A stretch of DNA of 64,000 nt from an uncultured Gammaproteobacteria bacterium (GCA_964543035.1 CAZIVL010000001.1:367736-431735), one strand, 5' to 3'; shown: positions 21,867 to 64,000, numbered from the stretch's first letter. Made by a program: numbers and translations. The notes: generated by a model from the letters alone, not told the origin.

Positions 21867-23220
21867 ACACTCGTTGACTGAAGCCTTAGATGGCCTGAGG
21901 TCCAAAAAATTTAGTTCCAAAGAACTCGTTCAATCGTGTTTGGATGAGATAAAAAAATCCGATCCCCAAGTCCACGCCTTCCTACACATTAACGAAAACG
22001 CCATTGAGGAAGCGGAAAAATCCGACTTACAACCAACAACTAACAACTTATTACTCAATGGAATCCCAATCGCCGTAAAAGACAATTTTTTAACAGTCGG
22101 TATCCCTACCACAGCCAGTAGCAAGGTATTGGATGGTTACATGCCACATTACGAGTCCACAGTTACCCAAAGACTCAAAAATGCTGGAGCAATTATTTTG
22201 GGCAAGACAAACATGGACGCGTGGGCTCACGGCAGCTCGACCGAGACCTCAGATTACGGACCGACAAAAAATCCTCGAAACTTGGGACATTTGCCTGGTG
22301 GTTCTTCCGGAGGATCCGCAGCAGCTGTTGCCGCTGACATGTGCATAGCAAGCATTGGTTCTGAAACTGCAGGTAGTATTCGTCAGCCAGCGGCCTGGTG
22401 TGGAGTCGTAGGTTTCAAACCCACCTACGGCCGTGTTAGTCGCTACGGTGTCGTGGCTATGGCCAGTTCCACCGATTCTCCGGGACCGCTGACCAAAACA
22501 GTTGCCGATGCCGCTCTCCTTACCAGGATTATTGCCGGTTCTGATCCATACGATGCCACTACCTCAAATGTAGAAATACCAGATTACACACAACTCACAT
22601 CAGATAAGAAGCTGAGAATTGGTCTCCCCAAAGAATACCTAGAAGTAATGGAACCAAAAGCCCAAGAATTGGTGCTTGCAGCAGCAAAAAAAATGGAAAA
22701 ACTGGGCCACGAGGTCGTTGAAATGTCTCTTATCCATCCAAAGTATTCCATTGGTGTTTACACCATAGTCCAAAGAGGTGAGGTAAGTAGTAATCTTGCC
22801 CGCTACGATGGTATTCGATATGGTCAAGATCGCAGTGTCTTCGGTGACGAAGCCAAGCGAAGGATTATGCTGGGAACATTTGCCCTCTCGTCAGGTTATC
22901 ACGACCAGTACTACACCAAAGCTCAAAAAGTTCGCACTCTTATCATTAATGATTTCAAAAAAGCTTTTGAAAAGTTTGATCTACTGATAGATCCTGCTTC
23001 TCCAGGTCCAGCTCTGGCTCTGGGAGCCACGGCAGAAGACCCCATGTTTGGAGAAAATCAGGATATATTGGTCGAGCCATCCAGTATCGCCGGTCTTCCC
23101 GGCATCAGCGTACCATGTGGAAATGTAGGAGATTTACCGATCAGTTTTGGATTTATTGGCCCTCAGTTCAGTGAGAGTCTAATATTACAAGCCGCTCATC
23201 AGTATGAATCATCCCTTTAA
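21847..23220 (+). CDS. gatA: Glu-tRNA(Gln) amidotransferase subunit A (amidase)
   Basis: Amidase signature 'GGSSGGSAAAVA', 'KDN' and 'GKTNMDA'. Start at the internal ATG overlapping the gatC end. Confidence 0.85.
   Translation: MSSMLNKHSLTEALDGLRSKKFSSKELVQSCLDEIKKSDPQVHAFLHINENAIEEAEKSDLQPTTNNLLLNGIPIAVKDNFLTVGIPTTASSKVLDGYMPHYESTVTQRLKNAGAIILGKTNMDAWAHGSSTETSDYGPTKNPRNLGHLPGGSSGGSAAAVAADMCIASIGSETAGSIRQPAAWCGVVGFKPTYGRVSRYGVVAMASSTDSPGPLTKTVADAALLTRIIAGSDPYDATTSNVEIPDYTQLTSDKKLRIGLPKEYLEVMEPKAQELVLAAAKKMEKLGHEVVEMSLIHPKYSIGVYTIVQRGEVSSNLARYDGIRYGQDRSVFGDEAKRRIMLGTFALSSGYHDQYYTKAQKVRTLIINDFKKAFEKFDLLIDPASPGPALALGATAEDPMFGENQDILVEPSSIAGLPGISVPCGNVGDLPISFGFIGPQFSESLILQAAHQYESSL
22022..22052. 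repeat. 7-bp-period tandem array, ACAACNN family (ACAACCA ACAACTA ACAACTT), in frame in gatA
   Basis: Encodes 'DLQPTTNNLL' just before the conserved 'NGIPIAVKDN'. Confidence 0.7.
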
Positions 23221-28900: not shown

Positions 28901-29479
28901 TATTCAGGAAAAATAGTCACCGTCGTAGGTGTGGTGGAATCTTGTCGCAATGTCGTGACCAAGGCCAAAGGTGAGGCCATGTGTTTTGCCAAGTTGACCG
29001 ATCTTTCCAAAGCCATTGAAGTGGTGGTCTTCCCCAAGACTTATGCCACGACCAATCTCTGTTGGCAGGTAGACAATCTGGTCATCGTCACCGGCCGGCT
29101 CGAAAATCGCTCTACCATAGAATCCGAGTCAGATGAAGAGGTCGAGCAGACCTATACTCTCATTGCCGATACAGCTGTCCAGTACACCGGCCCCGACACA
29201 GTATTGCCCAAGGCTCCCAACCGGGGGGGTCGGTCAGATATTTCATCCCAAAAACTAACAACTAACAACTTACAACCAACAACTATATCTATCACTATCC
29301 CCAAGGGTACTCCTCAGTCCAAGCTAGTAGCCCTCAACACTCTTCTTCAGTCAAACAAGGGCAGTCGTCCAGCCGAGCTAATTTTTGAAGGAGTCACCCC
29401 AGCCAAGATTTTGCCCCTCCCCTTCGGCCTCACCTGGTCTGAAAAATTAGAAAAAGATATCAAAGAGTTATTTATCTAA
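25913..29479 (+). CDS. dnaE: DNA polymerase III subunit alpha
   Basis: N-terminal PHP 'HLHVHSEYSLLDG', polymerase core and OB-fold; 1188 aa. Confidence 0.9.
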   Translation: MSANFVHLHVHSEYSLLDGLSKIKKLVKKAKEQEMNSLALTDHGVMYGTIEFYKECTKEGIKPLIGMEGYIVNRDLHDKSGKGENNHLLLLAKNHEGYKNLMKLSSIAQVEGFYYRPRFDKETLKKYSSGLIATSTCPKGEVGQLLIDGNYEEAKKAVEWYADLFGPENYYLEIQRHFYQDYFDSVKNQPKILSKLQDMVKTEKVWIDGIVKLSRELGLPLVATNDAHYINQTDATAQDALVCISTGKNVSDVERIRYIDTPTFFLRSGEDMQNIFPDYPDAISNTQKVADLCDVQIELGKWHFPKLELPEGKDAATTLKDLVAERIADHYPKVDADLQKRIDFELDTIITKGYAPYFLLMSDLVNWCSDNGIITNTRGSAAGSVVSFIIGITTVDPLRYLLPFERFLNPYRPSPPDIDLDIADDRREELIAYVTQKFGREKVAQICTFGRMLARAAVRDMTRVLGHPYAVGDRLAKVIPLGAQGFPMTIDRALYESPEFKVLYDTDPTSKQIIDLAREIEGNARHASVHAAGTVVSPTDMTDFTPLQLEPNGEKIITQYEMHACEEVGLVKFDILGIRNLSILGAARDIIEKHRGIKVNLRKIPLDDKKTFAMLARGETMGVFQMGGSGMTKWIKELRPTRVEDLMIMIAIFRPGPMANIPEFISRKNGKSKVEYMHPAMAKFLDKSYGILVYQDDVLYTALELAGYNWDSVDKFRKAIGKKIPEEMAKQHEIFVKGCQETSKMTAEEAEKLWELFVPFQGYGFNKAHAASYGIVSYQTAYLKANYPVEYMTALLTAESGNTEKIVEAIDECKRMKIKVLAPDVNKSDTDFTIEDGTSIRFGLSAIKNVGDVAITLILDARKAGPFTSLTDLCLRVDAGKVNRKVLESLIKAGALDSFGKRSAMLAGLDKIRDQGMSLNKAKSLGQFSLFGEEEGPKDTADNLPDIEEIEKKQKLNLEKELLGFYLTEHPHSQAISEAHDSGLPTHRISELYSGDYSGKIVTVVGVVESCRNVVTKAKGEAMCFAKLTDLSKAIEVVVFPKTYATTNLCWQVDNLVIVTGRLENRSTIESESDEEVEQTYTLIADTAVQYTGPDTVLPKAPNRGGRSDISSQKLTTNNLQPTTISITIPKGTPQSKLVALNTLLQSNKGSRPAELIFEGVTPAKILPLPFGLTWSEKLEKDIKELFI
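29251..29285. repeat. 7-bp-period tandem array, ACAACNN family, 5 units (AAAACTA ACAACTA ACAACTT ACAACCA ACAACTA), in frame in dnaE
   Basis: Encodes 'KLTTNNLQPTTI' in the C-terminal region. Confidence 0.75.
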
Positions 29480-31423: not shown

Positions 31424-33094
31424 GTGTCGAAAAAAACAATTTTTTTGGGTTTAATCCTTGTTGCAGCCTTTTTTCTTCGCTTTTATGATCTCGGCCTCCT
31501 CCCAAACGGTCTGCATTGGGATGAGCAGGATACCGGCTACCAGGCCTTATCTCTTTTCAAAACTGGTCGTGATTACCACGGCGTGCCCTTGCCTCTCTTT
31601 CCTCACTCTTTTGCCGACTACCGCACCCCGGTCTTCATCTACTCAGCCGTCCCAGTCGTCGCCAAACTTGGTCTGACGGCCTTTTCCGTCCGTCTCCCAG
31701 CGCTCATCTGGGGATTAGTCGGAGTGGCAGCTATGTATACACTCGCCACTCTCATACTTAGAAATTCGAAGTTAGGATTTATATCTTCAGGACTTTTAGC
31801 ATTGTCACATTGGCATCTCCAGTATTCTAAAAAAAGCGTGGAGACGATTTCTCTTAGTACCTTGTTTTTGATCGGTCTGGCTTGCTTTTTCAAGGGTCTC
31901 AAAAAGCCGGTTTGGCTCATCTGGTCTGGGTTATTTTTTGGTCTAGCAACTGCAGCCTACAGTCCAGGCAAGCTCTTTGTCCCATTAATACTTTCTACTT
32001 TATTCGTTATACATTTTACAAATCTCAGGTCACACCTAAAACACTCGATTCTTGGAGCCCTAGCATTTTTAGTAATATTCGTCCCCGTATTTGCGGACGG
32101 ATTGTGGGGCAAGTCGGGGACTCGCTTTCATGATGTCTCAGTCTTTACCGATCCCACACTTGGAACTACCGTGGATTTCAAACGGCTTGAGTCAATCCTT
32201 TCCTCAGGCATACCCAGAACAGTAGGCTTGTCTCCCAGATTGATTGACAAAATACTTATAAACAAGCCCGAAGAAGCAGTATCAAAGATTGTGACCAATT
32301 ATTTCACGACCTTAGGCAGCGAGTATTTATTTATAAAAGGGGATTCAGAGCCCCGTCATTCTCCGAGCCAAGATAGGATTGGCATGCTCCAGGCCATCGA
32401 GCTCATCCCCTTTATCCTGGGTCTCGTAGTCCTACTCACAACCCACAACCTACAACTAAAAACTATATTATTTTGGCTTCTCCTCGCCCCTCTCCCGTCT
32501 GCTCTTACTCGTGACGGGGGCGGCCATGCGGCCCGGACTTTTATTCTCCTTCCCGCCCTTATTTTGATTCTCACCCTCGGCCATAAGTTTTTATATCAAA
32601 AATCCAAAATACTTTATACGTTATACCTAATACTTTATACAGTTAGCACTTTCTACATCTATGGCTATTACTTTACAGTCTACCGGACCGAGTCGGCCAA
32701 ACCTTTTCAGTATGGGTTCGACTGGGTCATTTCCAAAGCGGTAGCCGGGTCAGCCAGTTATGACAAAGTGTATGTAGACGGCAACCGTGACACACTCCTC
32801 ATGTCGTACCTGTTTTATCACCAACAAGATCCCGCCGCGTTCCAAAAAACCCTGCCTCTTCAGGATGAAGAAATTTTTCCCGGAGTAAGAGCCCTGAGAT
32901 TTGGAAATATTTATTTGCTAGCCCCAGGTAGTAGGCACTGGACCGATATTACCAACAGTCAGACCTACACTGGTCGCAATCTCATCATCTCAGCGGCTGA
33001 CCAGCCACTTCTGACCGACCAGATCAAGACTAAGCTTGATACCCTCATCTACCCGGACACCATGACCCCGGCCTACTACGTCTTTACAAAATAA
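31424..33094 (+). CDS. glycosyltransferase family 39/83 (ArnT/PMT-like), GTG start
   Basis: 'LRFYDLGLLPNGLHWDEQDTGYQA' N-terminal signature, more than 10 TM helices; reading starts at GTG 31424. Confidence 0.7.
   Translation: MSKKTIFLGLILVAAFFLRFYDLGLLPNGLHWDEQDTGYQALSLFKTGRDYHGVPLPLFPHSFADYRTPVFIYSAVPVVAKLGLTAFSVRLPALIWGLVGVAAMYTLATLILRNSKLGFISSGLLALSHWHLQYSKKSVETISLSTLFLIGLACFFKGLKKPVWLIWSGLFFGLATAAYSPGKLFVPLILSTLFVIHFTNLRSHLKHSILGALAFLVIFVPVFADGLWGKSGTRFHDVSVFTDPTLGTTVDFKRLESILSSGIPRTVGLSPRLIDKILINKPEEAVSKIVTNYFTTLGSEYLFIKGDSEPRHSPSQDRIGMLQAIELIPFILGLVVLLTTHNLQLKTILFWLLLAPLPSALTRDGGGHAARTFILLPALILILTLGHKFLYQKSKILYTLYLILYTVSTFYIYGYYFTVYRTESAKPFQYGFDWVISKAVAGSASYDKVYVDGNRDTLLMSYLFYHQQDPAAFQKTLPLQDEEIFPGVRALRFGNIYLLAPGSRHWTDITNSQTYTGRNLIISAADQPLLTDQIKTKLDTLIYPDTMTPAYYVFTK
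32431..32465. repeat. 7-bp-period tandem array, ACAACNN family (ACAACCC ACAACCT ACAACTA AAAACTA)
   Basis: In frame in the GT39 gene; encodes 'LLTTHNLQLKTI'. Confidence 0.7.
32609..32643. repeat. 7-bp-period tandem array, ATACNNN family, 5 units (ATACTTT ATACGTT ATACCTA ATACTTT ATACAGT)
   Basis: In frame in the same GT39 gene; encodes 'KILYTLYLILYT'. Confidence 0.7.
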
Positions 33095-47692: not shown

Positions 47693-48343
47693 ATGCAAAT
47701 AATTCACGGAGATAATCAGATCGCTTCCAGACAACTTTTTTTATCAAAAAAAGTCGAAGCTCAAAAAAAAGGTTTAAATATTGTTGACCTGGCAGGAGCA
47801 GACCTCACATTGCAAGATCTAAAAAATTCTCTCTCATCAACTACACTTCTAGGCGAGTCCAATGCGGTTTTTGTCGAAGGCTTTTTTGGCAGGCGCCCCA
47901 GCAATGAAAAAAAAGCCATTGCAGAGTTCATCAAATCCGATCCAAATACTCCGGTTATTTTTTGGGACGGCAAAGACATTTCCTCCCAACTGCTCTCTAT
48001 TCACCAATCGCTAATCACTAAACAGGATCTTCCCAAGCATCTATTTACTTTTATAGACAACTGGCAGCTTACTCTATATCACCAAGCCCTCAAATCTACA
48101 GATCCAGAGCCTATCATGGCTCTTTTGGCCAAGCGCATTCACGATCTAATTTTAGTCAAAGAAGGTCGTGGAAAATTTCCCAGCTGGCAAGCCTCAAAAC
48201 TAGAATTTCAAGCAAAAAAATACAGCCTCTCACAACTCACTACTTACAACCAACAACTTCTCGATATTGATTACAAAAACAAATCCGGAGATCTCCCTTA
48301 TGACCTGGCGGCAGCACTGGAGTTGTGGCTTCTAAAAATGTAA
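47693..48343 (+). CDS. hypothetical protein, possibly a short DNA polymerase III delta subunit (HolA)-like protein
   Basis: Weak N-terminal resemblance to HolA clamp-loader delta. Confidence 0.3.
   Translation: MQIIHGDNQIASRQLFLSKKVEAQKKGLNIVDLAGADLTLQDLKNSLSSTTLLGESNAVFVEGFFGRRPSNEKKAIAEFIKSDPNTPVIFWDGKDISSQLLSIHQSLITKQDLPKHLFTFIDNWQLTLYHQALKSTDPEPIMALLAKRIHDLILVKEGRGKFPSWQASKLEFQAKKYSLSQLTTYNQQLLDIDYKNKSGDLPYDLAAALELWLLKM
48225..48259. repeat. 7-bp-period tandem array, ACAACNN family (ACAACTC ACTACTT ACAACCA ACAACTT)
   Basis: Shares the exact 16-mer 'CTTACAACCAACAACT' with the dnaE and gatA arrays but is read in another codon phase ('LTTYNQQLL'). Confidence 0.7.
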
Positions 48344-48353: not shown

Positions 48354-50726
48354 ATGCCCAAACTCTTTGGTACTTCTGGTATCCGCGGGTCCTCCGAAGG
48401 ATTTTTTACAAATCAGTTTTGTCAGACTCTGGGAGAGGCATTTGGCAACTGGCTCAAGTCAAAAAATCGCGAAGGAGACGTGGCGATAGCGTATGACCCC
48501 AGAGACAGCAGTCCCAGGATCAAAGACGAATTTCTCAAAGGACTAGCGAGCACTGGCTACGAGATTTTAGACGAGGGCGTGATTCCCACTCCTGCATTGG
48601 CATATTTTGTAAACAAAAATCCCCATCTAGCAGGCGGGGTCATGATCACCGGTTCTCATATCACCTCAGATCTCAATGGTATCAAATTCTTTTTAGGTAG
48701 CGGCGAAATCCAAAAAACCCACGAAGTCGAAATCGAGAAAATAATCTCGTCTATTCCAATCACAAATCACCAATCACAAACAACCAACATCAAAGTTGAT
48801 TCCGCAGCTCGTGACTTATATCTCGATATGTTGGTGGGTCTTGCCAGTCTTCCCTACCCTGAGTGGACAGTCGCAGTAGATACAGCCAATGGTGCCCAGT
48901 CTGAGATCATCCGCCCGCTTTTTGAGAGACTCAGTCTCACGCTTGTGACGACCGGTGATTGTGACATCCAATCTCCTTATTTCGTTCCTCGTGATACCGA
49001 GGTTCAGACATCGACCGCTGACCTGCAAAAGCACGTTATCTCAAACAAAGCTGATTTAGGAGTAGCCTTCGATGCCGACGGCGACCGAGTAGTATTCATT
49101 GATCCTAAAGGCCAGTTTGTCCCGGGTGACTACTCATGCACACTGCTTGCTCGGGAGGATGATTCAGAAAAAATAGTTACCACAGTTAGTACGAGCTCGG
49201 TCGTGGATAGCATAGGCAAGCACATATTTCGCACTCCGGTGGGATCTCCATTTGTGACAGCCAAGATGCAAGAAGTCGGAGCCACTTTTGGCTTTGAGCC
49301 CAATGGTGGCAGTATCAGCTCAGATCTTCACTACAGTCGCGATGGGGGATCGACTTTTATTAAGCTTCTCAATCTCCTAAAAAAATCTGGCAAAAGCCTG
49401 GACGAACTGGTCTCCACCTTGCCCCACTACGCGATGTACAAAGACAAAATAGATTGCCCGGTCAACAAATATCAGCAGATTTACGATACTGTCTCGGAAA
49501 AATATTCAGATCACGAGCAAGACAAAACCGATGGCCTAAAGGTGTTTCTAAACAGTACAGACTGGCTGCTTTTCCGCGGATCTGGCAACGCTCCCGAGTT
49601 TAGAGTGATAGTCCAAGCTCACGCCGAAGCTACAGCCCGCGACCTCGCCCTCAAATCCCTAAAGCTCATAAAAAGCATAATCAATCCTAATAATGAAATA
49701 CAAAATACTAGATACAAGATACAAGATACATTAAATGTCCTGAGCTCCATCCGCCTCTTCCCCGACCAATGCGCTCAAGTCCTCTCAGATCAAGGGATTT
49801 TTCGGATCCCCAACATGTGTAGTCTGGTGGATAACATCGTAGTCTCTGGCATGGGCGGATCTGCCTTGGGTGGACGCATAATTGACGCTCTATCACGAAG
49901 GATTCTCAAAGTCCCTCTCTCCATCTCTACTCAATACAATTTGCCAAATTTTGTAAACTCAAAGTCACTGGTCATCATCTCGTCCTACTCAGGTGACACC
50001 CAGGAAACGGTCGAAAGTTTTCATGAAGCCAAAGCAAAAAATGCCCAGATTTTTGTCATTGCCACGGGGGGACAGCTGGCAAAGCTAGCAGCAGAATTCA
50101 ACGTCCCGATATATTTAGTAGATCCCATCCACAACCCCAGTGGTCAGCCGCGCCTAGGCTTAGGTTACAGCGTCATGTCCATGCTAGCTGTCCTCAACCG
50201 CTGTGGCCACATCAGAATTCCCCACAGTATCGACACTCTCCCCAGCTATCTAAAAGAGCACCAAGACGAAAGTCGGTTCGAAGCAGTTGCCCAAAAACTG
50301 AGTGGCAAGATCCCAATCTTGATATCCGGAGAGCATCTAGTAGGTAGTAGTCATGCCATAAAAAACATGTTCAACGAAAACAGCAAAACTTTTTGCGCAA
50401 GTTTCGACCTGCCTGAGGCCAATCATCATCTTCTAGAGGGCTTGCAATTTCCCAAGACCAATACAGACAATCTGGTGGCTGTCTTTGTAGGCTCACCTTA
50501 TTACAATCCTGAGCTAGGAAAGACCATCCTTGCCACAAAATCCGTGTTTGAAAAAAATCATATTCCAGTTGTAAATCTTGAGTTTGATTCTCCCAATCCT
50601 CTGACCGAAAGTCTGGAGTATCTCCAGGCAGGAGCTTTTATTTCATATTTCTTAGCTAGCCTCAATGGCGTTGACCCGGGCCCCATTCCCTATGTACACT
50701 GGTACAAGGATCAAATTAGTTTATGA
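48354..50726 (+). CDS. phosphomannomutase/phosphoglucomutase fused to phosphoglucose/phosphomannose isomerase (SIS domain)
   Basis: N-terminal 'FGTSGIRG' and 'TGSHITSD' PMM/PGM motifs over about 440 aa; C-terminal roughly 300 aa with a 'VVSGMGGSALGGRI' SIS/PGI-PMI motif. Confidence 0.6.
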   Translation: MPKLFGTSGIRGSSEGFFTNQFCQTLGEAFGNWLKSKNREGDVAIAYDPRDSSPRIKDEFLKGLASTGYEILDEGVIPTPALAYFVNKNPHLAGGVMITGSHITSDLNGIKFFLGSGEIQKTHEVEIEKIISSIPITNHQSQTTNIKVDSAARDLYLDMLVGLASLPYPEWTVAVDTANGAQSEIIRPLFERLSLTLVTTGDCDIQSPYFVPRDTEVQTSTADLQKHVISNKADLGVAFDADGDRVVFIDPKGQFVPGDYSCTLLAREDDSEKIVTTVSTSSVVDSIGKHIFRTPVGSPFVTAKMQEVGATFGFEPNGGSISSDLHYSRDGGSTFIKLLNLLKKSGKSLDELVSTLPHYAMYKDKIDCPVNKYQQIYDTVSEKYSDHEQDKTDGLKVFLNSTDWLLFRGSGNAPEFRVIVQAHAEATARDLALKSLKLIKSIINPNNEIQNTRYKIQDTLNVLSSIRLFPDQCAQVLSDQGIFRIPNMCSLVDNIVVSGMGGSALGGRIIDALSRRILKVPLSISTQYNLPNFVNSKSLVIISSYSGDTQETVESFHEAKAKNAQIFVIATGGQLAKLAAEFNVPIYLVDPIHNPSGQPRLGLGYSVMSMLAVLNRCGHIRIPHSIDTLPSYLKEHQDESRFEAVAQKLSGKIPILISGEHLVGSSHAIKNMFNENSKTFCASFDLPEANHHLLEGLQFPKTNTDNLVAVFVGSPYYNPELGKTILATKSVFEKNHIPVVNLEFDSPNPLTESLEYLQAGAFISYFLASLNGVDPGPIPYVHWYKDQISL
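48758..48792. repeat. 7-bp-period tandem array (AATCACA AATCACC AATCACA AACAACC AACATCA)
   Basis: In frame in the PMM domain; encodes 'ITNHQSQTTNI'. Confidence 0.65.
49698..49732. repeat. 7-bp-period tandem array, ATACNNN family, 5 units (ATACAAA ATACTAG ATACAAG ATACAAG ATACATT)
   Basis: At the PMM/PGI domain junction; encodes 'EIQNTRYKIQDT'. Confidence 0.75.
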
Positions 50727-53002
50727 AGTACGTAAAGTGGTTCAAAGAATTAAGTCGTGAGGATATTCCTATTGCCGGAGGCAAAGGAGCAAATCTGGGT
50801 GAGCTCACAGGCGCCGGTGTTCCAGTGCCCGATGGCTTTGTAGTTCTTTCAAATGCCTACTTTGATTTTCTCGATTACAACAAATTGCGTTTAGAGATCC
50901 ACAAGATTCTCAAGTCGCGTGATGCCGCCGATCCCGCCCAGCTAAAAACCGCTTCAGAGCAAATCCAAAAGCTTCTCAAAAAAGCCGAGATTCCCCCCGA
51001 GATAGCGCGCGAAGTCTTTGAGTCGTATCACAAATTGGGTAGCAAGACCCCAGTCGCTGTTCGCTCTTCTGCCACCGCAGAAGACTTGCCCGAGGCTTCA
51101 TTTGCCGGCCAGCAGGAGTCTTACCTAAATATCTTGGGAGACGCCAATGTGCTCCTCAAGGTCAAAGAATGCTGGATGTCTCTGTTTGGTCAAAGAAGTA
51201 TTTTTTACCGTGAGCAAAAACACTTTGATCATTTCAAGGTGGGTATCGCAGTCCCTGTCCAGACCATGGTCCAATCCGAAGTATCAGGCGTCATGTTTAC
51301 CACCGATCCGATTTCCCAAGACAAAAACAAAGTCGTAATTGAGGCCATCTATGGATTGGGTGACTATATCGTCCAAGGCGTCGTGACTCCTGACCATTAC
51401 GAAGTATCAAAAGCTGGTGAGAGTATTATCCAAAAACAGATTGCCCTCCAAGAAGTCGCCGAAGTCAGGACCACCCAGGGCGTAAAAGAGATAAAAATTC
51501 CTAAAAAAGAGGGTGAAAAACAAAAGATCTCCGATGCAAACATTGTTAAGTTGGCCCAAATTGGCAAAAAGATTCATCAGCATTATCTATTTCCCCAAGA
51601 CATCGAGTGGGCATATGCCAAAAACAAGCTCTATATCACCCAAGCCCGCCCCATCACCACACTATCCTCATCCTCACAAACTATCACACAACCCACTACT
51701 CACAATTTAACCGCGATACTCACAGGTGCCCCCGCTTCTCCCGGTCTCATCTCAGGCCCAGTAAAAATAATTGCCAATATAAAAAATATTGACCGCATCA
51801 AAGCCGGCGACATCATGGTTACCGATATGACCACCCCGGATTTTGTGCCAGCTATGAAAAGAGCTGGCGCCATCATTACCAATCGCGGTGGCCTGACTTC
51901 TCATGCGGCCATAGTTTCCCGTGAGCTCGGTGTTCCTTGCGTCGTAGGTACAAAAGATGCCACCCAAAAGCTAGTCGATGGCATGGTGGTAACTGTTGAT
52001 GGTGCCAAAGGCGAAATCTACAAAGGCGCAGTTTCAAGGCAATCCAAAAAGCTTTCCATGACTGAGAAACTGGAAAACTTGGCATCTGAAAAACTTCACA
52101 CTGCCACTAAGTTGTATGTCAATTTGGCCGAACCAGATCTTGCCAAAAAGATCTCCGCACACCACATCGATGGCGTAGGCCTGCTTCGGGCCGAGTTTAT
52201 GATCGCAGGCATTGGCGTCCACCCCAAAAAATTATTAGCAGAAGGAAAAGGCGAACAATTTATTTCCAAGCTCACAGAGCAGATAGCCACTTTTTGTGAA
52301 AGTTTTTCCCCGAGACCCGTCATTTACAGAGCCACCGATTTCAAGACCAATGAATATCGAGCCTTGAAGGGCGGAGAAGCCTACGAGCCAGAGGAATCAA
52401 ACCCAATGCTAGGTTTCAGAGGCGCCATCAGATACATCAAGAGTCCAGAGGTTTTTGCCCTGGAACTAGAAGCGATTAAGCGCGTAAGAAACAAACACAA
52501 TCTCAAAAATCTTTGGCTCATGATCCCATTTGTCTCGACGGTTTCAGAGCTTGTTGAGGTAAAAAAGATTGTCGCCGCCAGTGGTCTATATAGGAGTAGT
52601 AATTTCAAGCTCTTTATGATGGTCGAGATACCCTCAAACGTGATTCTGTTGGACGACTTTTTGGATGTGGGTATCGATGGTGTATCTATTGGCAGCAACG
52701 ATCTGACAATGTTAATCTTGGGTACAGATCGTGACAATTCTGAGGTCGCCTCGCAGTTTGACGAGAGAAACCCCGCCGTCATGTGGGCTCTCGAAAAGAC
52801 TGTCAGGACTTGTGCCAAAAGAGGTGTCATGTGCGGCATCTGCGGCCAAGCTCCTAGTGAGTATCCAGAGTTAGTCGAAAAATTGGTTGAGTGGGGAGTG
52901 ACCAGTATTTCAGTCAATCCCGATGCCATCGGTCGCACTCGCCAGATCATATTCAATGCTGAACATAGTCTTATTACTAAGAAATCTAAATCGTCATCCT
53001 GA
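50723..53002 (+). CDS. ppsA: phosphoenolpyruvate synthase (pyruvate, water dikinase)
   Basis: 'IAGGKGANLGEL' ATP-grasp N-terminus, 'GGLTSHAAIVSRELGVPCVVG' phospho-His domain and PEP-utilising C-terminus. Confidence 0.85.
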   Translation: MKYVKWFKELSREDIPIAGGKGANLGELTGAGVPVPDGFVVLSNAYFDFLDYNKLRLEIHKILKSRDAADPAQLKTASEQIQKLLKKAEIPPEIAREVFESYHKLGSKTPVAVRSSATAEDLPEASFAGQQESYLNILGDANVLLKVKECWMSLFGQRSIFYREQKHFDHFKVGIAVPVQTMVQSEVSGVMFTTDPISQDKNKVVIEAIYGLGDYIVQGVVTPDHYEVSKAGESIIQKQIALQEVAEVRTTQGVKEIKIPKKEGEKQKISDANIVKLAQIGKKIHQHYLFPQDIEWAYAKNKLYITQARPITTLSSSSQTITQPTTHNLTAILTGAPASPGLISGPVKIIANIKNIDRIKAGDIMVTDMTTPDFVPAMKRAGAIITNRGGLTSHAAIVSRELGVPCVVGTKDATQKLVDGMVVTVDGAKGEIYKGAVSRQSKKLSMTEKLENLASEKLHTATKLYVNLAEPDLAKKISAHHIDGVGLLRAEFMIAGIGVHPKKLLAEGKGEQFISKLTEQIATFCESFSPRPVIYRATDFKTNEYRALKGGEAYEPEESNPMLGFRGAIRYIKSPEVFALELEAIKRVRNKHNLKNLWLMIPFVSTVSELVEVKKIVAASGLYRSSNFKLFMMVEIPSNVILLDDFLDVGIDGVSIGSNDLTMLILGTDRDNSEVASQFDERNPAVMWALEKTVRTCAKRGVMCGICGQAPSEYPELVEKLVEWGVTSISVNPDAIGRTRQIIFNAEHSLITKKSKSSS
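51672..51710. repeat. degenerate 7-bp-period array, ACAACNN family (…ACAACCC ACTACTC ACAATTT)
   Basis: In the ppsA inter-domain linker; encodes 'QTITQPTTHNLTA'. Confidence 0.5.
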
Positions 53003-53071: not shown

Positions 53072-54340
53072 ATGAAATTAAAGCAGCTTTACGCCAGAGA
53101 AATCATTGATTCCCGTTCGACTCCGACCGTAGAAGTCGTGGCTATACTGGATACAGGTGAGTTTGGCGTCGCCTCAGTGCCATCTGGCAGTTCCACCGGC
53201 AGTTACGAAGCCTTAGAGCTCCGAGACAATGACCCAAACAGATATTTAGGCAAAGGAGTCCTCAAATCAGTAGGTTTTGTAAACACAGACATAGCCCAAG
53301 CTCTAGTCGGAAAAGATTTTGAAAGTATCGGACAGTTGGACGATATTTTGATCAAACTAGATGGTACTCCCACCAAGTCTCGTCTAGGGGCAAATTCGAT
53401 CCTGGGTGTCTCCATGGCCGCGACCAAAGCCGCCGCCACCGCCGCCAAGTTACCTCTATATAAATATATTTCCCAACTCACAACCCAAAACCCACAACCT
53501 ACGACTAATTTATTCGTCCCCGTCCCCATTTTCAACATGATAAACGGCGGCAAGCATGGTGCTGGCAATTTGGATTTTCAGGAGTTCCATGTCATCCCCA
53601 GCCGGCTCAAATCATTTGCGTCCATGCTCGAAGTAGGCTGTGAGATATATCAGACTATAAAAAAACTTTTGGCCAGACGGGGTGCTATTCATAGCGTAGG
53701 TGACGAAGGTGGCTTTGCTCCCAATCTTTTTACTAATCTGGATGCTCTAGAGATTCTCAATGAATCTATTATGGAATGTCACAAAAAACCCACCATCGAT
53801 GTAGAGCTGGGCTTGGATATTGCGGCCAATAGTTTTTTCAAAGATGGCAAGTACATCATCAAAGATCGCAGTAGTCCCATGGACACGGCCGAATTTGTAG
53901 ATTATCTCAGAGATCTAAATAGCCAGTACCACTTGAGACTTCTCGAAGACCCCTTGCACGAAGATGATTGGAAAGGCTGGAGTCAGCTCACGAGTACTTT
54001 AGGCAGTGTGACGACTATTGTAGGCGACGATCTAATCGCAACCAACAAAGACAAAGTAAAAAAGGCTATCACCGAAAAAGCCTGTACCGGGGCCATTATC
54101 AAACCAAATCAGATCGGAACCGTCACCGAAACGATCGAAGTCGTAACCCAGGCGCGTACTGCCGGCTGGAAGATAGTCGTGTCCCATAGATCAGGTGAGA
54201 CCAACGACACATTTATCGCCGATTTTGCAGTCGGAGTCGGAGCCGATTATGCCAAGTTCGGCGCTCCCGCCCGCGGCGAACGTGTGGCCAAGTACAACAG
54301 GCTACTATCTATAGAATCTGAATTGTCTCAGCACCCTTAA
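53072..54340 (+). CDS. eno: enolase (phosphopyruvate hydratase)
   Basis: 'YAREIIDSRSTPTVEV' N-terminus, 'SHRSGETNDTFIADFAV' and C-terminal enolase signatures. Confidence 0.9.
   Translation: MKLKQLYAREIIDSRSTPTVEVVAILDTGEFGVASVPSGSSTGSYEALELRDNDPNRYLGKGVLKSVGFVNTDIAQALVGKDFESIGQLDDILIKLDGTPTKSRLGANSILGVSMAATKAAATAAKLPLYKYISQLTTQNPQPTTNLFVPVPIFNMINGGKHGAGNLDFQEFHVIPSRLKSFASMLEVGCEIYQTIKKLLARRGAIHSVGDEGGFAPNLFTNLDALEILNESIMECHKKPTIDVELGLDIAANSFFKDGKYIIKDRSSPMDTAEFVDYLRDLNSQYHLRLLEDPLHEDDWKGWSQLTSTLGSVTTIVGDDLIATNKDKVKKAITEKACTGAIIKPNQIGTVTETIEVVTQARTAGWKIVVSHRSGETNDTFIADFAVGVGADYAKFGAPARGERVAKYNRLLSIESELSQHP
53473..53507. repeat. 7-bp-period tandem array, ACAACNN family (…ACAACCC AAAACCC ACAACCT ACGACTA)
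   Basis: In frame in eno between 'LYKYIS' and 'VPVPIFNMINGG'; encodes 'QLTTQNPQPTTNL'. Confidence 0.7.
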
Positions 54341-60619: not shown

Positions 60620-60627
60620 GACCTTGT

Positions 60628-61884: not shown

Positions 61885-62124
61885 AAAGATCTTGACACGG
61901 TTTGCAAATCCTGGCATAAAAATCAGATGCTGGTTGAATCCCTCTTTCAAAAACCTCCGCAACCACCAGTTATAAGACAACCTGAAAGACCACTTCCGTC
62001 TGTTATAAGACCTCCTCATCAAACACAACAAGTCCACAAAAAACACGTACCCCAGACCGGAAAAAGAAACCCACGCGGGTCTTGAACAAAACCCGAAGAG
62101 TGTATACAATAGTAAGTCGATTGT

Positions 62125-64000
62125 ATGCCAGATTATATAAAGATTAGAGGAGCCAGGGAGCACAATCTCAAGGGAGTTGACCTCGATATCCCCAAGAACA
62201 AATTGGTAGTTTTCACCGGCCTTTCTGGGTCTGGCAAATCCAGCATGGCCTTTGACACCATCTACGCCGAAGGTCAGAGGCGTTACGTGGAGTCCCTATC
62301 TTCCTACGCTCGTCAATTTTTGGGGGTTATGGACAAGCCCGATGTGGATCAGATCGAAGGATTGTCTCCTGCTATCTCCATCGATCAAAAGTCTGTCTCT
62401 CACAATCCCAGATCGACTGTGGGTACTGTCACCGAGATCTATGACTACATGCGCTTACTCTTTGCCCGTATTGGTCATCCCCATTGTCCTATCTGTGGTC
62501 GTGAGATCTCCCAGCAGTCCGCCCAGCAGATAGTAGACAAGATTGTGGCAGTCGCCAAAGATGAGATCAAGCTGACCAAGTCAGTTCGCTTTCTTCTTTT
62601 GTCGCCCATCATCAGAGATCGCAAGGGTGAGTTCAGAGACCTCTTTGGGTCACTACGCCAAAAAGGCTTCACCCAAGTCAGAATCGACGGCAAGATCATA
62701 GATCTGACCGAAGATATATTGCTACTCAAAAATAACAAACACACGATCGAAGTAGTAGTCGACAGGTTGGTCATCGACAAAAATCTACTGACAACTGACA
62801 ACTCACAACTGCGAACTCGATTATTTGACTCCATCGAGCACGCCCTCAAGCTCTCCGAAGGCATAGTGATCCTTTCCAAAGTGACGGACAAGTCATTTGA
62901 TATGCCAGCCAGGCCTACCCAGATGGAGGATCAGCTTTTTTCTCAGCGTTTTGCCTGTCCAGTGGACAATATTTCCCTGCCTGAGATTGAGCCTCGGTTA
63001 TTTTCTTTCAACTCGCCTCATGGCGCTTGTCCCACCTGTACAGGACTGGGGACTCTTCTCAAGATCGATGACAAGTTGATCCTCAATCCCAATCTGACTA
63101 TCTCCGAAGGCGGCATCCTCCCATATGCCAATACATTTACTTACGACTCATGGTTTGCCCAAAAAGTCGGCAAGTTCATAGATTTGCGAAAGCCCATTAA
63201 AGATTTGCCCAAAGAGGATCTCAAAGATCTTTTGTATGGCAATGAGTATTTTGAGGGCGTGATCCCAAATCTGGAGCGTCGGTACCGCCAGACCGAGTCA
63301 GAATATATAAGAACCGAGATCGAAAAATATATGCGCAAAGAAGTTTGTCCCACGTGTTCTGGTCAGCGCCTCAAGCCCGAAGCCTTGGGTATTACGATCA
63401 ATGATCTGTCCATAGTCGATGTCACTACCAAATCGATTTTGGGAGCTCTCACTTTTGCCCGGGATCTTGATGGTCTCATAGGTTCCGAAAGTATCATCGG
63501 CAAACCCATTCTCAAGGAGATCAAAGAGCGCTTGGGCTTTTTGGTCTCAGTGGGCCTCGACTATCTCACCCTCGATCGCACCGCCACGACTCTGGCCGGA
63601 GGCGAGTCCCAGCGTATTCGTCTGGCCTCTCAGATTGGTTCCGGCCTATCAGGAGTCCTCTATGTCTTGGACGAGCCGTCAATAGGCCTTCACCAGCGCG
63701 ACAATCAGCGTCTGATCGACACCCTGCATCATCTGCGTGACTTGGGCAACTCAGTGGTTGTAGTCGAGCACGACTCCGAGATGATGCTTCAGTCCGATTA
63801 TCTGGTCGATTTTGGTCCCAAAGCCGGTGAGCACGGTGGCAAGATCGTTGCCGAAGGCACGCCCGCTGAAGTTGTGGCCAATCCCAAATCTTTGACAGGT
63901 CAATATCTCTCCGGCAAAAAATCTATCCATGTCACATCTCCAACTGAGAAACTGAATAACTGGGATACTGCAAAACTATTGATAAAAGGCGTCACCGAGC
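62125..64000 (+). CDS. uvrA: excinuclease ABC subunit A (3' end cut by window edge)
   Basis: 'MPDYIKIRGAREHNLKGVDLDIPKNKLVVFTGLSGSGKSS' N-terminus, zinc-finger 'CPTCSGQRL' and ABC signature 'LSGGESQR'; the frame stays open to base 64000. Confidence 0.85.
   Translation, partial: MPDYIKIRGAREHNLKGVDLDIPKNKLVVFTGLSGSGKSSMAFDTIYAEGQRRYVESLSSYARQFLGVMDKPDVDQIEGLSPAISIDQKSVSHNPRSTVGTVTEIYDYMRLLFARIGHPHCPICGREISQQSAQQIVDKIVAVAKDEIKLTKSVRFLLLSPIIRDRKGEFRDLFGSLRQKGFTQVRIDGKIIDLTEDILLLKNNKHTIEVVVDRLVIDKNLLTTDNSQLRTRLFDSIEHALKLSEGIVILSKVTDKSFDMPARPTQMEDQLFSQRFACPVDNISLPEIEPRLFSFNSPHGACPTCTGLGTLLKIDDKLILNPNLTISEGGILPYANTFTYDSWFAQKVGKFIDLRKPIKDLPKEDLKDLLYGNEYFEGVIPNLERRYRQTESEYIRTEIEKYMRKEVCPTCSGQRLKPEALGITINDLSIVDVTTKSILGALTFARDLDGLIGSESIIGKPILKEIKERLGFLVSVGLDYLTLDRTATTLAGGESQRIRLASQIGSGLSGVLYVLDEPSIGLHQRDNQRLIDTLHHLRDLGNSVVVVEHDSEMMLQSDYLVDFGPKAGEHGGKIVAEGTPAEVVANPKSLTGQYLSGKKSIHVTSPTEKLNNWDTAKLLIKGVTE
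62784..62818. repeat. 7-bp-period tandem array, ACAACNN family (TCTACTG ACAACTG ACAACTC ACAACTG CGAACTC), in frame in uvrA
   Basis: Encodes 'LLTTDNSQLRTRL'. Confidence 0.7.

What the first reader, a model, noticed from the sequence alone, without database searches (positions are those of the whole stretch)
22022..62818. Heptanucleotide tandem arrays (ACAACNN family) embedded in frame inside conserved housekeeping genes
At least eight arrays of 4-5 tandem 7-bp units with consensus ACAACNN lie inside CDS. They are in gatA (22022-22052), dnaE (29251-29285), the GT39 gene (32431-32465), the HolA-like ORF (48225-48259), the PMM domain (48758-48792, a variant AATCACA), ppsA (51672-51710, degenerate), eno (53473-53507) and uvrA (62784-62818). 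A weaker candidate lies in gatC (21706-21751). Three copies share the exact 16-mer CTTACAACCAACAACT. The period is 7, which is not a multiple of 3. The same DNA is read in different codon phases in different genes: L-Q-P-T-T in dnaE and gatA, Y-N-Q-Q-L in the HolA-like ORF. What is conserved is therefore a DNA element, not a peptide, yet none of the arrays interrupts a reading frame. In eno the array replaces the loop between the conserved LY..I and PVP..NGG blocks. This resembles the known behaviour of Rickettsia palindromic elements, which insert in frame into protein genes, and the heptameric STRR repeats of cyanobacteria. I do not know of a description for a low-GC small-genome bacterium like this one. 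Such arrays could be slippage-prone sites whose unit copy number modulates surface loops, or could mark a selfish mini-satellite.
Basis: partly seen in the sequence, partly recalled or inferred. Interest (0 to 1): 0.85.

Follow-up and report, generated by a model that had tools for sequence, protein, structure and literature searches.

The report
In-frame 7-bp repeat arrays in genes
Short runs of a 7-base DNA repeat really do sit in frame inside essential genes of this ultra-small (CPR, Amesbacteria) bacterium and its relatives. They look like a tolerated by-product of a DNA repeat-making process that survives only in flexible protein linkers, not a purpose-built signal.

Summary
Only period 7 gives tandem arrays in this window: 8 arrays, against 0 for every other period from 3 to 12 and 0 in shuffles. 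Six ACAACNN arrays are solid (gatA, dnaE, GT39, HolA-like, eno, uvrA). Two are degenerate (PMM, ppsA). A second family, ATACNNN, adds four more.

The window is a Candidatus Amesbacteria (Microgenomates/CPR) genome with 45% GC. The same phenomenon runs through 80 related loci: 85 period-7 arrays against 10 or fewer for any other period. Unit families are genome-specific. About 63% of arrays lie inside ORFs. Some relatives carry inverted array pairs that form hairpins after genes.

Coding arrays sit in variable loops and inter-domain linkers. The same PpsA linker carries arrays of different families in about a dozen genomes. Most arrays do not lengthen the linker. Predicted in-frame stops are always mutated away, while out-of-frame stops are kept 84% of the time. 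The eno array decays by synonymous changes in close relatives.

Best reading: these are STRR-like heptanucleotide minisatellites made at the DNA level, filtered by selection on the protein, and then left to decay. That makes them a new variant of a known kind. The mechanism that spreads them between loci is unresolved.

The parts
22022..22052 (+). ACAACNN array in gatA. Units: CCGACTT ACAACCA ACAACTA ACAACTT. Encodes SDLQPTTNNLL (aa 82-92).
   Evidence: Core score 18/20. TRF period 7. Aligns without a gap to S. aureus GatA 'ELQAKDQMDGKL', so it replaces a variable loop before the GIPxxxKD motif. Carries the shared 17-mer.
29251..29285 (+). ACAACNN array in dnaE. Units: AAAACTA ACAACTA ACAACTT ACAACCA ACAACTA. 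Encodes QKLTTNNLQPTTI (aa 1113-1125).
   Evidence: Core score 20/20. TRF score 52. Lies in a hypervariable linker of variable length between the OB-fold region and the conserved C-terminal segment. Carries the shared 17-mer.
32431..32465 (+). ACAACNN array in the PMT_2/GT39-like membrane protein. Encodes LLTTHNLQLKTI (aa 336-348).
   Evidence: Core score 19/20. Lies downstream of the PMT_2 domain at aa 79-222. Its unit order resembles that of the eno array.
32599..32643 (+). ATACNNN array with T-rich variants (ATACTTT, ATACGTT, ATACCTA) in the same GT39-like gene. Encodes hydrophobic ILYTLYLILYT.
   Evidence: TRF period 7, 4.6 copies. Detected by the autocorrelation test. Peptide.
48225..48259 (+). 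ACAACNN array in the HolA-like ORF. Units: ACAACTC ACTACTT ACAACCA ACAACTT. Encodes SLSQLTTYNQQL (aa 178-189).
   Evidence: Core score 19/20. The orthologous site in L001 carries ACAACTT ACAACCT ACAACTT ACAACTT at the same length. Carries the shared 17-mer.
48758..48792 (+). Heptamer array AATCACA/AACAACC in the PMM-PGI fusion gene (aa 135-147), between PGM_PMM domains I and II.
   Evidence: TRF period 7, 3.3 copies, 87% matches. L001 has a different heptamer family (ATACGTN-like) at the same site. In the AlphaFold model the segment is coil and a local pLDDT dip. The linker is hypervariable across 44 Amesbacteria orthologues.
49689..49739 (+). ATACNNN array (ATACAAG type) in the linker joining the PMM and PGI halves. 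Encodes NNEIQNTRYKIQDTLNV (aa 446-462).
   Evidence: TRF score 52. L001 has the same family at the same site. Residues 447-454 are the only segment of the AlphaFold model with pLDDT below 50.
51672..51710 (+). Degenerate ACAAC-like array in ppsA. Encodes SSQTITQPTTHNLT (aa 317-330), in the linker between PPDK_N and the mobile His domain.
   Evidence: Core score 15/20. The same linker holds arrays of other unit families in L001, L004, L013, L014, L019, L056, L065 and others, with no change in linker length.
53473..53507 (+). ACAACNN array in eno. Units: CCAACTC ACAACCC AAAACCC ACAACCT ACGACTA. Encodes SQLTTQNPQPTTN (aa 134-146).
   Evidence: Core score 18/20. Lies exactly between Enolase_N (4-133) and Enolase_C (148-420). 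It is 8 aa longer than 4yws and 4 aa longer than all other Amesbacteria. The orthologous array in L082 and L083 differs by synonymous changes.
62784..62818 (+). ACAACTG-type array in uvrA. Units: TCTACTG ACAACTG ACAACTC ACAACTG CGAACTC. Encodes LLTTDNSQLRT (aa 220-231).
   Evidence: Core score 18/20. The loop has the same length in other Amesbacteria and is 8 aa longer than B. stearothermophilus UvrA. The single in-frame TGA of the unit is replaced by TCA. The last 'unit' is the native conserved L-R-T codons.
3405..3441 (+). ATACNNN array in a GT2 glycosyltransferase ORF (3132-3878). Encodes IIQNTRYEIQNTA (aa 92-104), just after the GT2 domain.
   Evidence: TRF and autocorrelation detection. 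Pfam domain at aa 5-94. Peptide.
4801..4840 (+). ATACNNN array in a Wzy_C (O-antigen ligase-like) membrane protein ORF (3812-4942). Encodes LYMILNTKYMIPIL (aa 330-343).
   Evidence: TRF period 7, 4.6 copies. Lies after the Wzy_C domain at aa 185-324. Peptide.
21723..21739 (+). Short unrelated heptamer duplication (TCACAGG x 2.4) in gatC. At most a proto-array.
   Evidence: TRF score 34. gatC ORF 21582-21866. Not ACAAC-type.

Best explanation
These are heptanucleotide minisatellites. They are the Microgenomates counterpart of cyanobacterial STRRs and of the 'long simple sequence repeats' with 7-nt units that are over-represented in many bacteria. My proposal has four steps.

Step 1, origin (partly inferred). 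A DNA-level process writes short period-7 tandem arrays. The most likely process is replication slippage or template switching that re-anneals in a register of about 7 nt. The arrays belong to a few genome-specific unit families. That points to copying between arrays (ectopic template switching or conversion), seeded where native sequence already resembles the unit. One example is the conserved L-R-T codons CGAACT that end the uvrA array.

Step 2, filter (largely shown). The genome is about 90-95% coding. The arrays that persist keep the frame, have lost their in-frame stop triplets, encode residues the host protein tolerates, and fall in loops or inter-domain linkers free in sequence but constrained in length. 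In soluble proteins the tolerated peptide is hydrophilic, T/N/Q/P. In membrane proteins it is hydrophobic, L/I/Y/T.

Step 3, fate (shown for eno). Once fixed, an array evolves like ordinary coding DNA. Synonymous substitutions erode its 7-nt periodicity and leave a fossil low-complexity linker peptide.

Step 4, function. No cis-acting function is required. The net effect is turnover of the linker sequence.
For: DNA-level origin:
- The periodicity is 7 nt, which a 7-aa peptide repeat would not need.
- The same codons and a shared 17-mer occur in three genes. The probability of that is about 0.01 under random assembly of family units.
- Across 80 related loci the counts are 85 arrays at period 7 against 10, 8, 2, 1 and 1 at periods 8, 9, 10, 6 and 12.
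- E. coli control: 0 arrays.
- Unit families are genome-specific: 41% of within-genome array pairs share a unit against 9% of between-genome pairs, permutation p < 0.001.
- The same families occur intergenically and in both orientations relative to genes in relatives.
- In L050 and L057, inverted arrays form dispersed hairpin elements of about 120 nt placed after stop codons.

Selection filter:
- 34 of 93 arrays are intergenic or at ORF edges although about 95% of the sequence is ORF-covered.
- Of the stop triplets predicted from the consensus unit, 32 of 32 in-frame ones are lost, while 66 of 79 out-of-frame ones are kept.
- The actual orientation encodes the more hydrophilic peptide in 39 of 60 arrays, p = 0.016.
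- Window arrays sit at Pfam domain boundaries or variable loops.
- In the AlphaFold model of the PMM-PGI fusion, the only segment with pLDDT below 50 is inside the ATAC array.
- The PpsA linker is a hot spot. At least 10 of the 66 linkers scored carry arrays of different families, and the window, L001 and L019 carry arrays at the same site too. The background rate is about 1 array per 15 kb.

Decay:
- The eno array in the window, L082 and L083 has the same length, and ACA changes to ACT and ACG synonymously.
- A fossil peptide is shared by Woesebacteria L053, L059 and L065.

Literature:
- Heptanucleotide LSSRs and the polymerase-slippage idea of Mrazek et al. 2007, as summarised in PMC4679880 and PMC4692102.
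Against: - Local slippage alone does not explain why one unit family occupies at least 8 unrelated genes. Nor does it explain how arrays overwrite a loop without changing its length. The inter-locus copying step is inferred and was not observed.
- All 13 arrays of this genome (12 in the window and one just upstream in L207) are on the + strand in + strand genes, although 27% of the window is minus-strand genes. The probability is roughly 0.02-0.03. This hints at a strand-specific process or function that I cannot explain.
- The first unit of most ACAAC arrays is (T)CCNACTN. That could be a boundary signature of a defined element.
- No population data were available to measure instability.
- Linkers without a detectable array show no residual lag-7 signal. 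Arrays are therefore either recent or quickly erased.
Confidence: 0.6

Rival explanations
1. A dedicated, lineage-specific machinery writes heptamer arrays from a short template into nicks or breaks and homogenises them in trans. It could be a reverse transcriptase or telomerase-like enzyme, a primase-polymerase, or a small mobile element with its own recombinase. The arrays would then be the footprints of an undescribed mobile or 'writer' system.
For: - Unit families are genome-specific.
- A 17-mer and a higher-order unit order are shared between arrays in different genes.
- Most ACAAC arrays start with the same first unit, (T)CCNACTN.
- L050 and L057 carry dispersed, conserved hairpin elements built from heptamer arrays.
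- The same linker sites carry different families in different genomes.
- All arrays of this genome are on one strand.
Against: - No candidate enzyme was identified.
- ACAACNN arrays occur in metagenomic contigs spanning 25-71% GC, and heptamer repeats are widespread in unrelated bacteria (PMC4679880, PMC4692102). That argues for a general property of replication rather than a clade-specific machine.
- There are no target-site duplications or defined termini beyond a weak 5' signature.
Confidence: 0.15
2. The arrays are functional cis-elements on DNA or mRNA. They could be binding sites for an abundant single-strand-binding or RNA-binding protein (S1-, Csp- or Hfq-like), or unstructured A/C-rich tracts that tune translation or co-translational folding at domain boundaries.
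For: - The sense-strand arrays are completely unstructured A/C-rich RNA with MFE 0.
- They sit at domain boundaries, where translational pausing could help folding.
- All are on the sense strand in this genome.
- A regulatory role was proposed for TAACTGA heptamer repeats in Beggiatoaceae (PMC4679880).
Against: - The eno array loses its ACAAC motif through synonymous changes in close relatives while the peptide is kept.
- In relatives the same families occur in both orientations relative to the gene.
- Orthologous sites carry unrelated unit sequences in different genomes.
- Most orthologues have no array at these sites.
Confidence: 0.1
3. Selection acts at the peptide level for a particular flexible linker motif (TTxNxQP), and the DNA similarity is convergent.
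For: - All arrays encode circular permutations of the same hydrophilic 7-aa motif.
- They occupy linkers.
- The ancestral Amesbacterial eno loop already reads A-x-N-T-Q-P.
Against: - A peptide motif would impose 21-nt periodicity, not 7-nt.
- Identical codons and a shared 17-mer occur across genes.
- Intergenic and antisense arrays of the same families occur in relatives.
- Other genomes use quite different peptides, such as LISNFEF and SKLEIRN, in the same linkers.
Confidence: 0.06
4. The arrays are contingency loci: slippage-prone repeats whose copy number switches or modulates the host proteins.
For: - They are tandem repeats inside genes.
- Some hosts are envelope glycosyltransferases or a Wzy-like protein.
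Against: - A 7-nt unit means a change of one unit frameshifts.
- The hosts include essential genes: dnaE, eno, gatA and uvrA.
- The arrays are short (4-5 units) and imperfect.
- The orthologous eno arrays have identical length in three lineages.
- Independent assemblies are identical.
Confidence: 0.03

Closest known systems
Heptanucleotide long simple sequence repeats (LSSR 5-11) of prokaryotes (Mrazek, Guo and Shah 2007, as summarised in PMC4679880 and PMC4692102)
   Same: Both are tandem arrays of 7-nt units that are over-represented relative to other unit lengths. A polymerase-slippage origin with a register of about 7 nt has been proposed for them. The arrays are short and vary between relatives.
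   Different: [quoted passage not shown] Here the arrays are in a tiny CPR genome, most are inside conserved housekeeping genes, they are imperfect, and they are grouped into genome-specific families.
Cyanobacterial STRR (short tandemly repeated repetitive) heptamers, and the GGGAATC / GGGGAYT repeats of Xanthomonas and Nostoc (PMC4692102)
   Same: All have heptamer units, several families per genome and dispersed copies. Inverted pairs able to form hairpins occur in Xanthomonas, and here in L050, L057 and L014. Sequence and length vary widely between close relatives at conserved locations.
   Different: The unit sequences differ: those are G-rich and can form quadruplexes, while these are A/C- or A/T-rich and unstructured. 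Those are intergenic, while the window's arrays are all in coding sequence. The phylum is different.
TAACTGA direct repeats of Beggiatoaceae, Cyanobacteria and Bacteroidetes (PMC4679880)
   Same: Both are heptamer direct repeats of 2-6 copies. A minority of the TAACTGA repeats lie in ORFs in the stop-free orientation, encode a 7-aa repeat (LSVISYQ) and sit at the periphery of proteins. The uvrA unit, CAACTGA, differs from TAACTGA by one base.
   Different: The TAACTGA repeats lie mostly just upstream of start codons and are proposed to regulate translation. Here there is no association with start codons, and the arrays lie in internal linkers of essential enzymes.
Rickettsia palindromic elements (RPE) and other in-frame miniature insertions
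   Same: Both are selfish or neutral repeated DNA tolerated in frame inside conserved protein genes, at surface-exposed and structurally permissive positions.
   Different: From my own knowledge, RPEs are palindromic elements of about 100-150 bp inserted as units. These arrays are 28-50 nt, non-palindromic (MFE 0), internally periodic, and usually do not lengthen the loop.
Borg tandem repeats that create intrinsically disordered regions (bioRxiv 10.1101/2022.05.18.492195)
   Same: Both are genome-specific, fast-evolving tandem DNA repeats that create low-complexity or disordered segments in proteins. Replication slippage was considered as the origin in both cases.
   Different: Within Borg ORFs all unit lengths are divisible by three, and repeat sequences are virtually unique to each locus. 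Here the unit is 7 nt and is shared by many loci.

Membership tests
Heptanucleotide LSSR / minisatellite | Head-to-tail iteration of a 7-nt unit | tested here: met
   TRF and lag-7 autocorrelation give 8 arrays at period 7 and 0 at other periods.
Heptanucleotide LSSR / minisatellite | Arrays longer or more frequent than chance allows for that genome's composition | tested here: met
   Dinucleotide shuffles and third-order Markov simulations give about 0 arrays at the thresholds used. The E. coli control gives 0.
Heptanucleotide LSSR / minisatellite | Length variation by slipped-strand events | tested here: inconclusive
   The eno array has the same length in three lineages. Array presence, family and length differ between the window and L001. 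No within-population data were found.
Cyanobacterial STRR | Heptamer tandem arrays with several families dispersed in one genome | tested here: met
   Two families (ACAACNN and ATACNNN) with 12 arrays in 64 kb.
Cyanobacterial STRR | Canonical unit sequences (CCCCAGT, TTGGTCA, CAACAGT; recalled from my own knowledge) and occurrence in cyanobacteria | tested here: not met
   The units are ACAACNN and ATACNNN. The host is Candidatus Amesbacteria, a CPR lineage.
Cyanobacterial STRR | Predominantly intergenic location | tested here: not met
   All window arrays are inside ORFs. Across the clade, 59 of 93 arrays are in ORFs.
Rickettsia palindromic element-like in-frame insertion | Palindromic element able to form a hairpin | tested here: not met
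   Window arrays fold with MFE 0 kcal/mol. No heptamer-based inverted repeats were found in the window.
Rickettsia palindromic element-like in-frame insertion | Inserted in frame in conserved genes as a net insertion relative to orthologues | tested here: inconclusive
   The arrays are in frame. A net insertion is seen only for eno, +4 aa against Amesbacteria. There is no length change in gatA, uvrA, ppsA or HolA.
Phase-variable contingency locus | Near-perfect repeat tract with copy-number heterogeneity that switches expression | tested here: not met
   The tracts are imperfect, 4-5 units long, and lie in essential genes. Independent assemblies are identical. Orthologous arrays have equal length.
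REP / REPIN / MITE-like dispersed hairpin repeats | Dispersed copies of an element with inverted arms, typically after genes | tested here: not met
   Not met in the window. Met in relatives L050 and L057, where the two arms are inverted heptamer arrays with z scores of -3.8 to -6.7.
TAACTGA repeats (MacGregor 2015) | Unit TAACTGA, positioned a few nucleotides upstream of start codons | tested here: not met
   The units differ, and the window arrays lie inside ORFs rather than just upstream of start codons.

The most novel reading that the evidence does not exclude
Microgenomates, and perhaps other bacteria rich in heptamer repeats, possess an undescribed templated mechanism that writes genome-specific 7-nt arrays into DNA and homogenises them between loci. 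It acts even inside essential genes. It overwrites linker-coding sequence without changing its length, and so acts as a built-in generator of new protein linker sequence.
Probability: 0.15. Interest if true: 0.85.

Novelty: new variant of a known kind. Interest (0 to 1): 0.5.

Why it matters
Tandem repeats whose unit is not a multiple of three are expected to be excluded from genes. In Borg ORFs, for example, every repeat unit length is divisible by three. Here period-7 arrays are the dominant repeat class of a whole CPR clade, and most of them sit inside genes, including dnaE, eno, gatA, uvrA and ppsA.

This matters in three ways:
1. It shows that selection can domesticate, or at least tolerate, a DNA-level repeat process in extremely compact genomes. 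It gives a concrete source for the rapid turnover of inter-domain linkers.
2. It provides a natural map of the positions in conserved enzymes that tolerate sequence replacement, such as the two PpsA swivel linkers and the enolase domain linker.
3. It sharpens an old open question: why seven, and how do heptamer families spread within a genome? The coding context records frame, stops and time since insertion, so the process becomes measurable.

In practice, these arrays could also mislead gene callers, alignment trimming and low-complexity filters when they are applied to CPR genomes.

Tried and rejected
- Strain polymorphism. The window's host proteins are singletons in their 90% clusters. The only enolase relatives (92-94% aa) have the same length. 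An identical Logan contig gave no variation. Copy-number polymorphism therefore could not be assessed.
- DnaE C-terminal homologue search. It returned only relatives at 56% identity or less. It shows a hypervariable linker but gives no fine-scale history.
- PMM-PGI homologue search. The nearest relative is L001 at 72%, and the rest are at 54% or less. It was useful for linker variability and for the AlphaFold alignment only.
- Metagenome scan for four ACAACNN units. It shows that the unit is not lineage-specific, but it did not give relatives of this genome.
- Single-linkage clustering of consensus units. Nearly all units chained into one cluster, so it was uninformative. I replaced it with a within- versus between-genome pair test.
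- Residual lag-7 signal in PpsA linkers with no detected array. None was found: 0.271 against 0.263-0.293 at neighbouring lags. The idea that every linker is a decayed array is not supported.
- Strand rule. Across the clade, same-family pairs are co-oriented 39 times and inverted 33 times, so there is no general strand bias. The + strand bias is seen only in this genome.
- Rfam and tRNA scans. Nothing overlaps the arrays.
- Inverted-repeat scan of the window. No heptamer hairpins were found.
- Mrazek et al. 2007. The paper could not be read directly and is cited through two papers that summarise it.
- Literature searches combining heptanucleotide or heptamer terms with CPR, Patescibacteria or Microgenomates terms. 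No description of this phenomenon was found.

Full report
**1. What is there**

The window has 45% GC. Its best matches are Candidatus Amesbacteria (Microgenomates, CPR/Patescibacteria) metagenome-assembled genomes (MAGs). The closest locus, L001, is 90% identical in enolase.

I ran a lag-autocorrelation detector (28-nt window, at least 21 matches). It finds 8 arrays at period 7 and none at periods 3-6 or 8-12. Dinucleotide-preserving shuffles give essentially none. TRF independently reports 14 period-7 rows out of 32.

I then scored four ACAAC cores spaced 7 nt apart. Six sites score at least 18/20: gatA 22022, dnaE 29258, GT39-like 32438, HolA-like 48232, eno 53473 and uvrA 62784. Third-order Markov simulations give none at that level, and the minus strand has none.

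The PMM (48766) and ppsA (51681) sites score 15/20, where chance gives about 0.3 per window. They are accepted mainly on comparative grounds. The gatC candidate is an unrelated 2.4-copy TCACAGG duplication.

A fifth member lies just upstream of the window, at L207 7839-7890.

Every array lies in an open frame of a gene whose identity Pfam confirms. An independent assembly is identical over the ppsA-eno region. The eno array recurs in two other samples. The arrays are therefore not assembly artefacts.

**2. The codon-phase argument**

A 7-nt repeat returns to the same frame every 21 nt. Any frame therefore yields the same 7-residue repeat, circularly permuted: ACA ACT NAC AAC TNA CAA CTN gives T-T-x-N-x-Q-L. 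The peptides in the eight genes are indeed all of the form (L/P)TTxNxQ. 'Read in different phases' therefore does not discriminate between a DNA-level and a peptide-level origin.

Four other observations do discriminate:
- The periodicity is 7 nt, which a peptide repeat does not require.
- The same codons recur, and a 17-mer, ACTTACAACCAACAACT, occurs in gatA, dnaE and HolA. The probability is about 0.01 if arrays were random assemblies of family units.
- Relatives carry arrays of the same kind in intergenic DNA and in antisense orientation.
- Stop codons show a specific pattern of removal (section 5).

**3. A clade-wide phenomenon**

In 80 loci (1.36 Mb) around eno from Microgenomates genomes, the detector finds 85 arrays at period 7. 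Periods 8, 9, 10, 6 and 12 give 10, 8, 2, 1 and 1. That is about 6-7 arrays per 100 kb, both in Amesbacteria and in other Microgenomates. One hundred kb of E. coli K-12 gives zero.

Each genome has its own unit families, such as GAAATTA, ATTGAAY, AAGTACT, TTTTGAA, CTAAGGG and ATACGTN. Two arrays from the same genome share a unit (at most 1 mismatch, any rotation or strand) in 41% of pairs. For arrays from different genomes the figure is 9% (permutation p < 0.001).

Of the 93 arrays (window plus loci), 59 lie inside long ORFs and 34 are intergenic or at ORF edges, although ORFs cover about 95% of the sequence. Arrays are therefore strongly enriched outside genes, but most of them are still inside genes.

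In L050 and L057, inverted arrays (AAAAGTC)n/(GACTTTT)n form conserved hairpin elements of about 120 nt. These are dispersed, sit right after stop codons and are followed by U-runs. In L014, two inverted arrays lie inside the ppsA coding sequence. The window has no such hairpins, and its arrays are unstructured (MFE 0).

**4. Where the coding arrays sit**

| Array | Position in the protein |
|---|---|
| eno | Exactly between Enolase_N and Enolase_C |
| ppsA | Between PPDK_N and the mobile His domain |
| PMM array 1 | Between PGM_PMM domains I and II |
| PMM array 2 | Joins the PMM and PGI halves of a fusion protein |
| dnaE | A C-terminal linker that varies from 0 to about 30 aa among relatives |
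| gatA, uvrA | Variable loops |

I built an AlphaFold2 model of the PMM-PGI fusion (mean pLDDT 90). Its only segment with pLDDT below 50 is residues 447-454, inside the ATAC array. The first array is a coil with a local dip in confidence.

The PpsA linker at about 43% of the protein carries arrays of different families in the window, L001, L004, L011, L012, L013, L014, L019, L056, L057, L065 and others. A second PpsA linker, at about 60%, carries arrays in L026, L052, L055 and L056. Given a background of about one array per 15 kb, a 60-nt linker occupied in 15-20% of genomes is roughly a 40-fold hot spot.

Linker length is the same with or without an array: 41-50 aa over the aligned stretch. 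The uvrA loop has the same length in other Amesbacteria. The gatA segment aligns without gaps to S. aureus GatA. Only eno shows a net gain, +4 aa against all other Amesbacteria and +8 aa against 4yws. The arrays therefore mostly overwrite loop sequence rather than insert into it.

**5. Signs of selection on the protein, not on the DNA motif**

Twenty-five of 60 coding arrays have a consensus unit that contains a stop triplet in the sense orientation. All 32 predicted in-frame stops are mutated, as they must be in an open frame. The same triplets out of frame are retained in 66 of 79 cases. In uvrA, for example, ACAACTG becomes ACAACTC exactly where TGA would fall in frame.

The orientation actually used encodes the more hydrophilic peptide in 39 of 60 arrays (p = 0.016). 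Within the ATAC family, soluble-protein linkers use A/G-rich variants (EIQNTRYKIQ). Membrane proteins use T-rich variants (ILYTLYLILYT, LYMILNTKYMI).

The eno array was compared across the window, L082 and L083 (78-83% nucleotide identity). Its length is constant, and its units diverge by synonymous changes (ACA, ACT, ACG) that destroy the ACAAC motif while keeping the peptide SQLTT(Q/H)N(P/S)QPTTN.

L001 (90% aa identity in enolase) has the ancestral short loop QLATNTQP, as do the other Amesbacteria. Woesebacteria L053, L059 and L065 share a fossil peptide from an AGTACAN array.

All of this argues against a conserved DNA or RNA signal and against phase variation.

**6. Turnover between close genomes**

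I compared the window with L001, which is about 74% identical at the DNA level.

| Site | Window | L001 |
|---|---|---|
| HolA | ACAAC array | ACAAC array, same length |
| PMM-PGI fusion linker | ATAC array | ATAC array |
| PMM site 1 | AATCACA | ATACGTN-like |
| ppsA | Degenerate ACAAC | CTTAGCA |
| eno | Array present | No array |

The same permissive sites are therefore re-used, and the family occupying a site can change.

**7. Mechanism**

Shown:
- The repeat arises at the DNA level.
- Unit families are genome-specific.
- Selection filters by frame, stops and residue type.
- Arrays are confined to permissive linkers.
- Arrays later decay.

Inferred:
- The generating step. The published hypothesis for heptamer excess is polymerase slippage, with about 7 nt being the length of DNA that interacts with the polymerase (Mrazek et al. 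2007, as cited).
- Copying between loci. Slippage explains growth of an array but not the presence of one unit family in at least 8 genes. I therefore infer copying between arrays (ectopic template switching or conversion), seeded by microhomology. The last 'unit' of the uvrA array is the native, conserved L-R-T codons CTG CGA ACT. The ancestral eno loop already contained ACAAAC..CAACC.
- Overwriting without length change. How arrays do this is unexplained. Possible routes are templated multi-nucleotide substitution by transient misalignment, or a gain of 21 nt followed by in-frame deletions.

Two further oddities remain. All 13 arrays of this genome are on the + strand in + strand genes (probability roughly 0.02-0.03). 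Most ACAAC arrays begin with (T)CCNACTN.

**8. Comparison with what is known**

Over-representation of heptanucleotide repeats in bacteria is established. Examples are the cyanobacterial STRRs, GGGAATC in Xanthomonas, GGGGAYT in Nostoc and TAACTGA in Beggiatoaceae. Inverted pairs and occasional copies inside ORFs have been described.

ACAACNN arrays themselves occur in many unrelated metagenomic contigs. There they are usually perfect, longer and non-coding.

I found no description of this phenomenon for CPR bacteria. Prior work also reports that repeats inside genes favour units that are multiples of three or, in Borgs, consist only of such units.

I therefore rate this a new variant of a known kind. 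It is not a member of STRR in the strict sense, because the units, the host and the location differ. It is not RPE-like in structure, and it is not a contingency locus.

**9. Verdict**

The best explanation is a DNA-level heptamer minisatellite that is filtered by selection on the protein and then decays (confidence about 0.6). A dedicated writer or mobile mechanism remains possible (about 0.15), and it is the reading that would make this important.

Interest is 0.5. The finding is surprising in its context and makes the 'why seven, how do they spread' question tractable, but it extends a known repeat class.

Noticed in passing
window 1-64000: GC skew is negative in every 2-kb bin, meaning C exceeds G on the + strand, which carries about 73% of the genes. 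This matches the unusual strand disparity reported for some Microgenomates (PMC7143001).
   Followed up: partly
window 48354-50726: A single 790-aa ORF fuses a phosphomannomutase/phosphoglucomutase (PGM_PMM domains I-III) to a SIS / bacterial-PGI isomerase. All 47 hits of roughly that length that I aligned are the fusion, and the named ones are Amesbacteria or Microgenomates-group. The other hits listed are shorter: about 440-475 aa PMM-only proteins, including named Shapirobacteria and Woesebacteria ones, plus truncated or isomerase-only forms. An ATAC-type heptamer array forms part of the fusion linker.
   Followed up: partly
L050 8600-8740, 11155-11295, 12000-12145; L057 11250-11380: Dispersed hairpin elements of about 120 nt whose two arms are inverted heptamer arrays, (AAAAGTC)n and (GACTTTT)n. 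They begin with AATTCAAAA, sit immediately after stop codons (for example after eno) and end in a U-run. They resemble REP elements or intrinsic terminators. Fold z scores are -3.8 to -6.7.
   Followed up: partly
L014 8669-8744: Two heptamer arrays in inverted orientation (CTAAGGG-type and CCTAGCA-type) lie back to back inside the PpsA linker coding sequence. They encode LSAKGQGLSAKE-NLAPSTQHLAP.
   Followed up: no
L053, L059 and L065, PpsA linker: Three Woesebacteria share the peptide IEKTKAVHST(Q/E)(D/N)KVQSE. It derives from an AGTACAN heptamer array that is still recognisable in L065 and decayed in the other two. It is a fossilised array.
   Followed up: partly
window 22022, 32431, 53473, 62784; L001 2652: The first, degenerate unit of most ACAAC arrays reads (T)CCNACTN: TCCGACTT, TCCTACTC, TCCCAACTC and ATCTACTG, with TCCT preceding the L001 array. 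This could be a boundary signature or a post hoc coincidence.
   Followed up: partly
window 63942-63977: A period-8/16 repeat, AACTGAGAAACTGAAA (2.2 copies), lies inside uvrA. It resembles the AACTGAA heptamer array of L002 (14799-14846).
   Followed up: no
window 21582-21866 and 21778-23220: The longest gatA ORF starts at GTG 21778 and overlaps gatC by 89 nt. The alignment to solved GatA structures begins near residue 27-32, so the true start is probably an internal ATG.
   Followed up: no
window 47693-48343: The 'HolA-like' ORF is only 216 aa. It has just a sub-threshold match to the C-terminal domain of DNA polymerase III delta (E = 5.7e-5, below Pfam's cut-off), so its identity is uncertain.
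   Followed up: no
L085-L164 (metagenome hits): Perfect ACAACTG, ACAACTA, ACAACTC, ACAACCA and ACAACGA arrays of up to about 24 units occur in contigs with GC from 25% to 71%. Heptamer arrays with this unit therefore arise in many unrelated organisms.
   Followed up: partly
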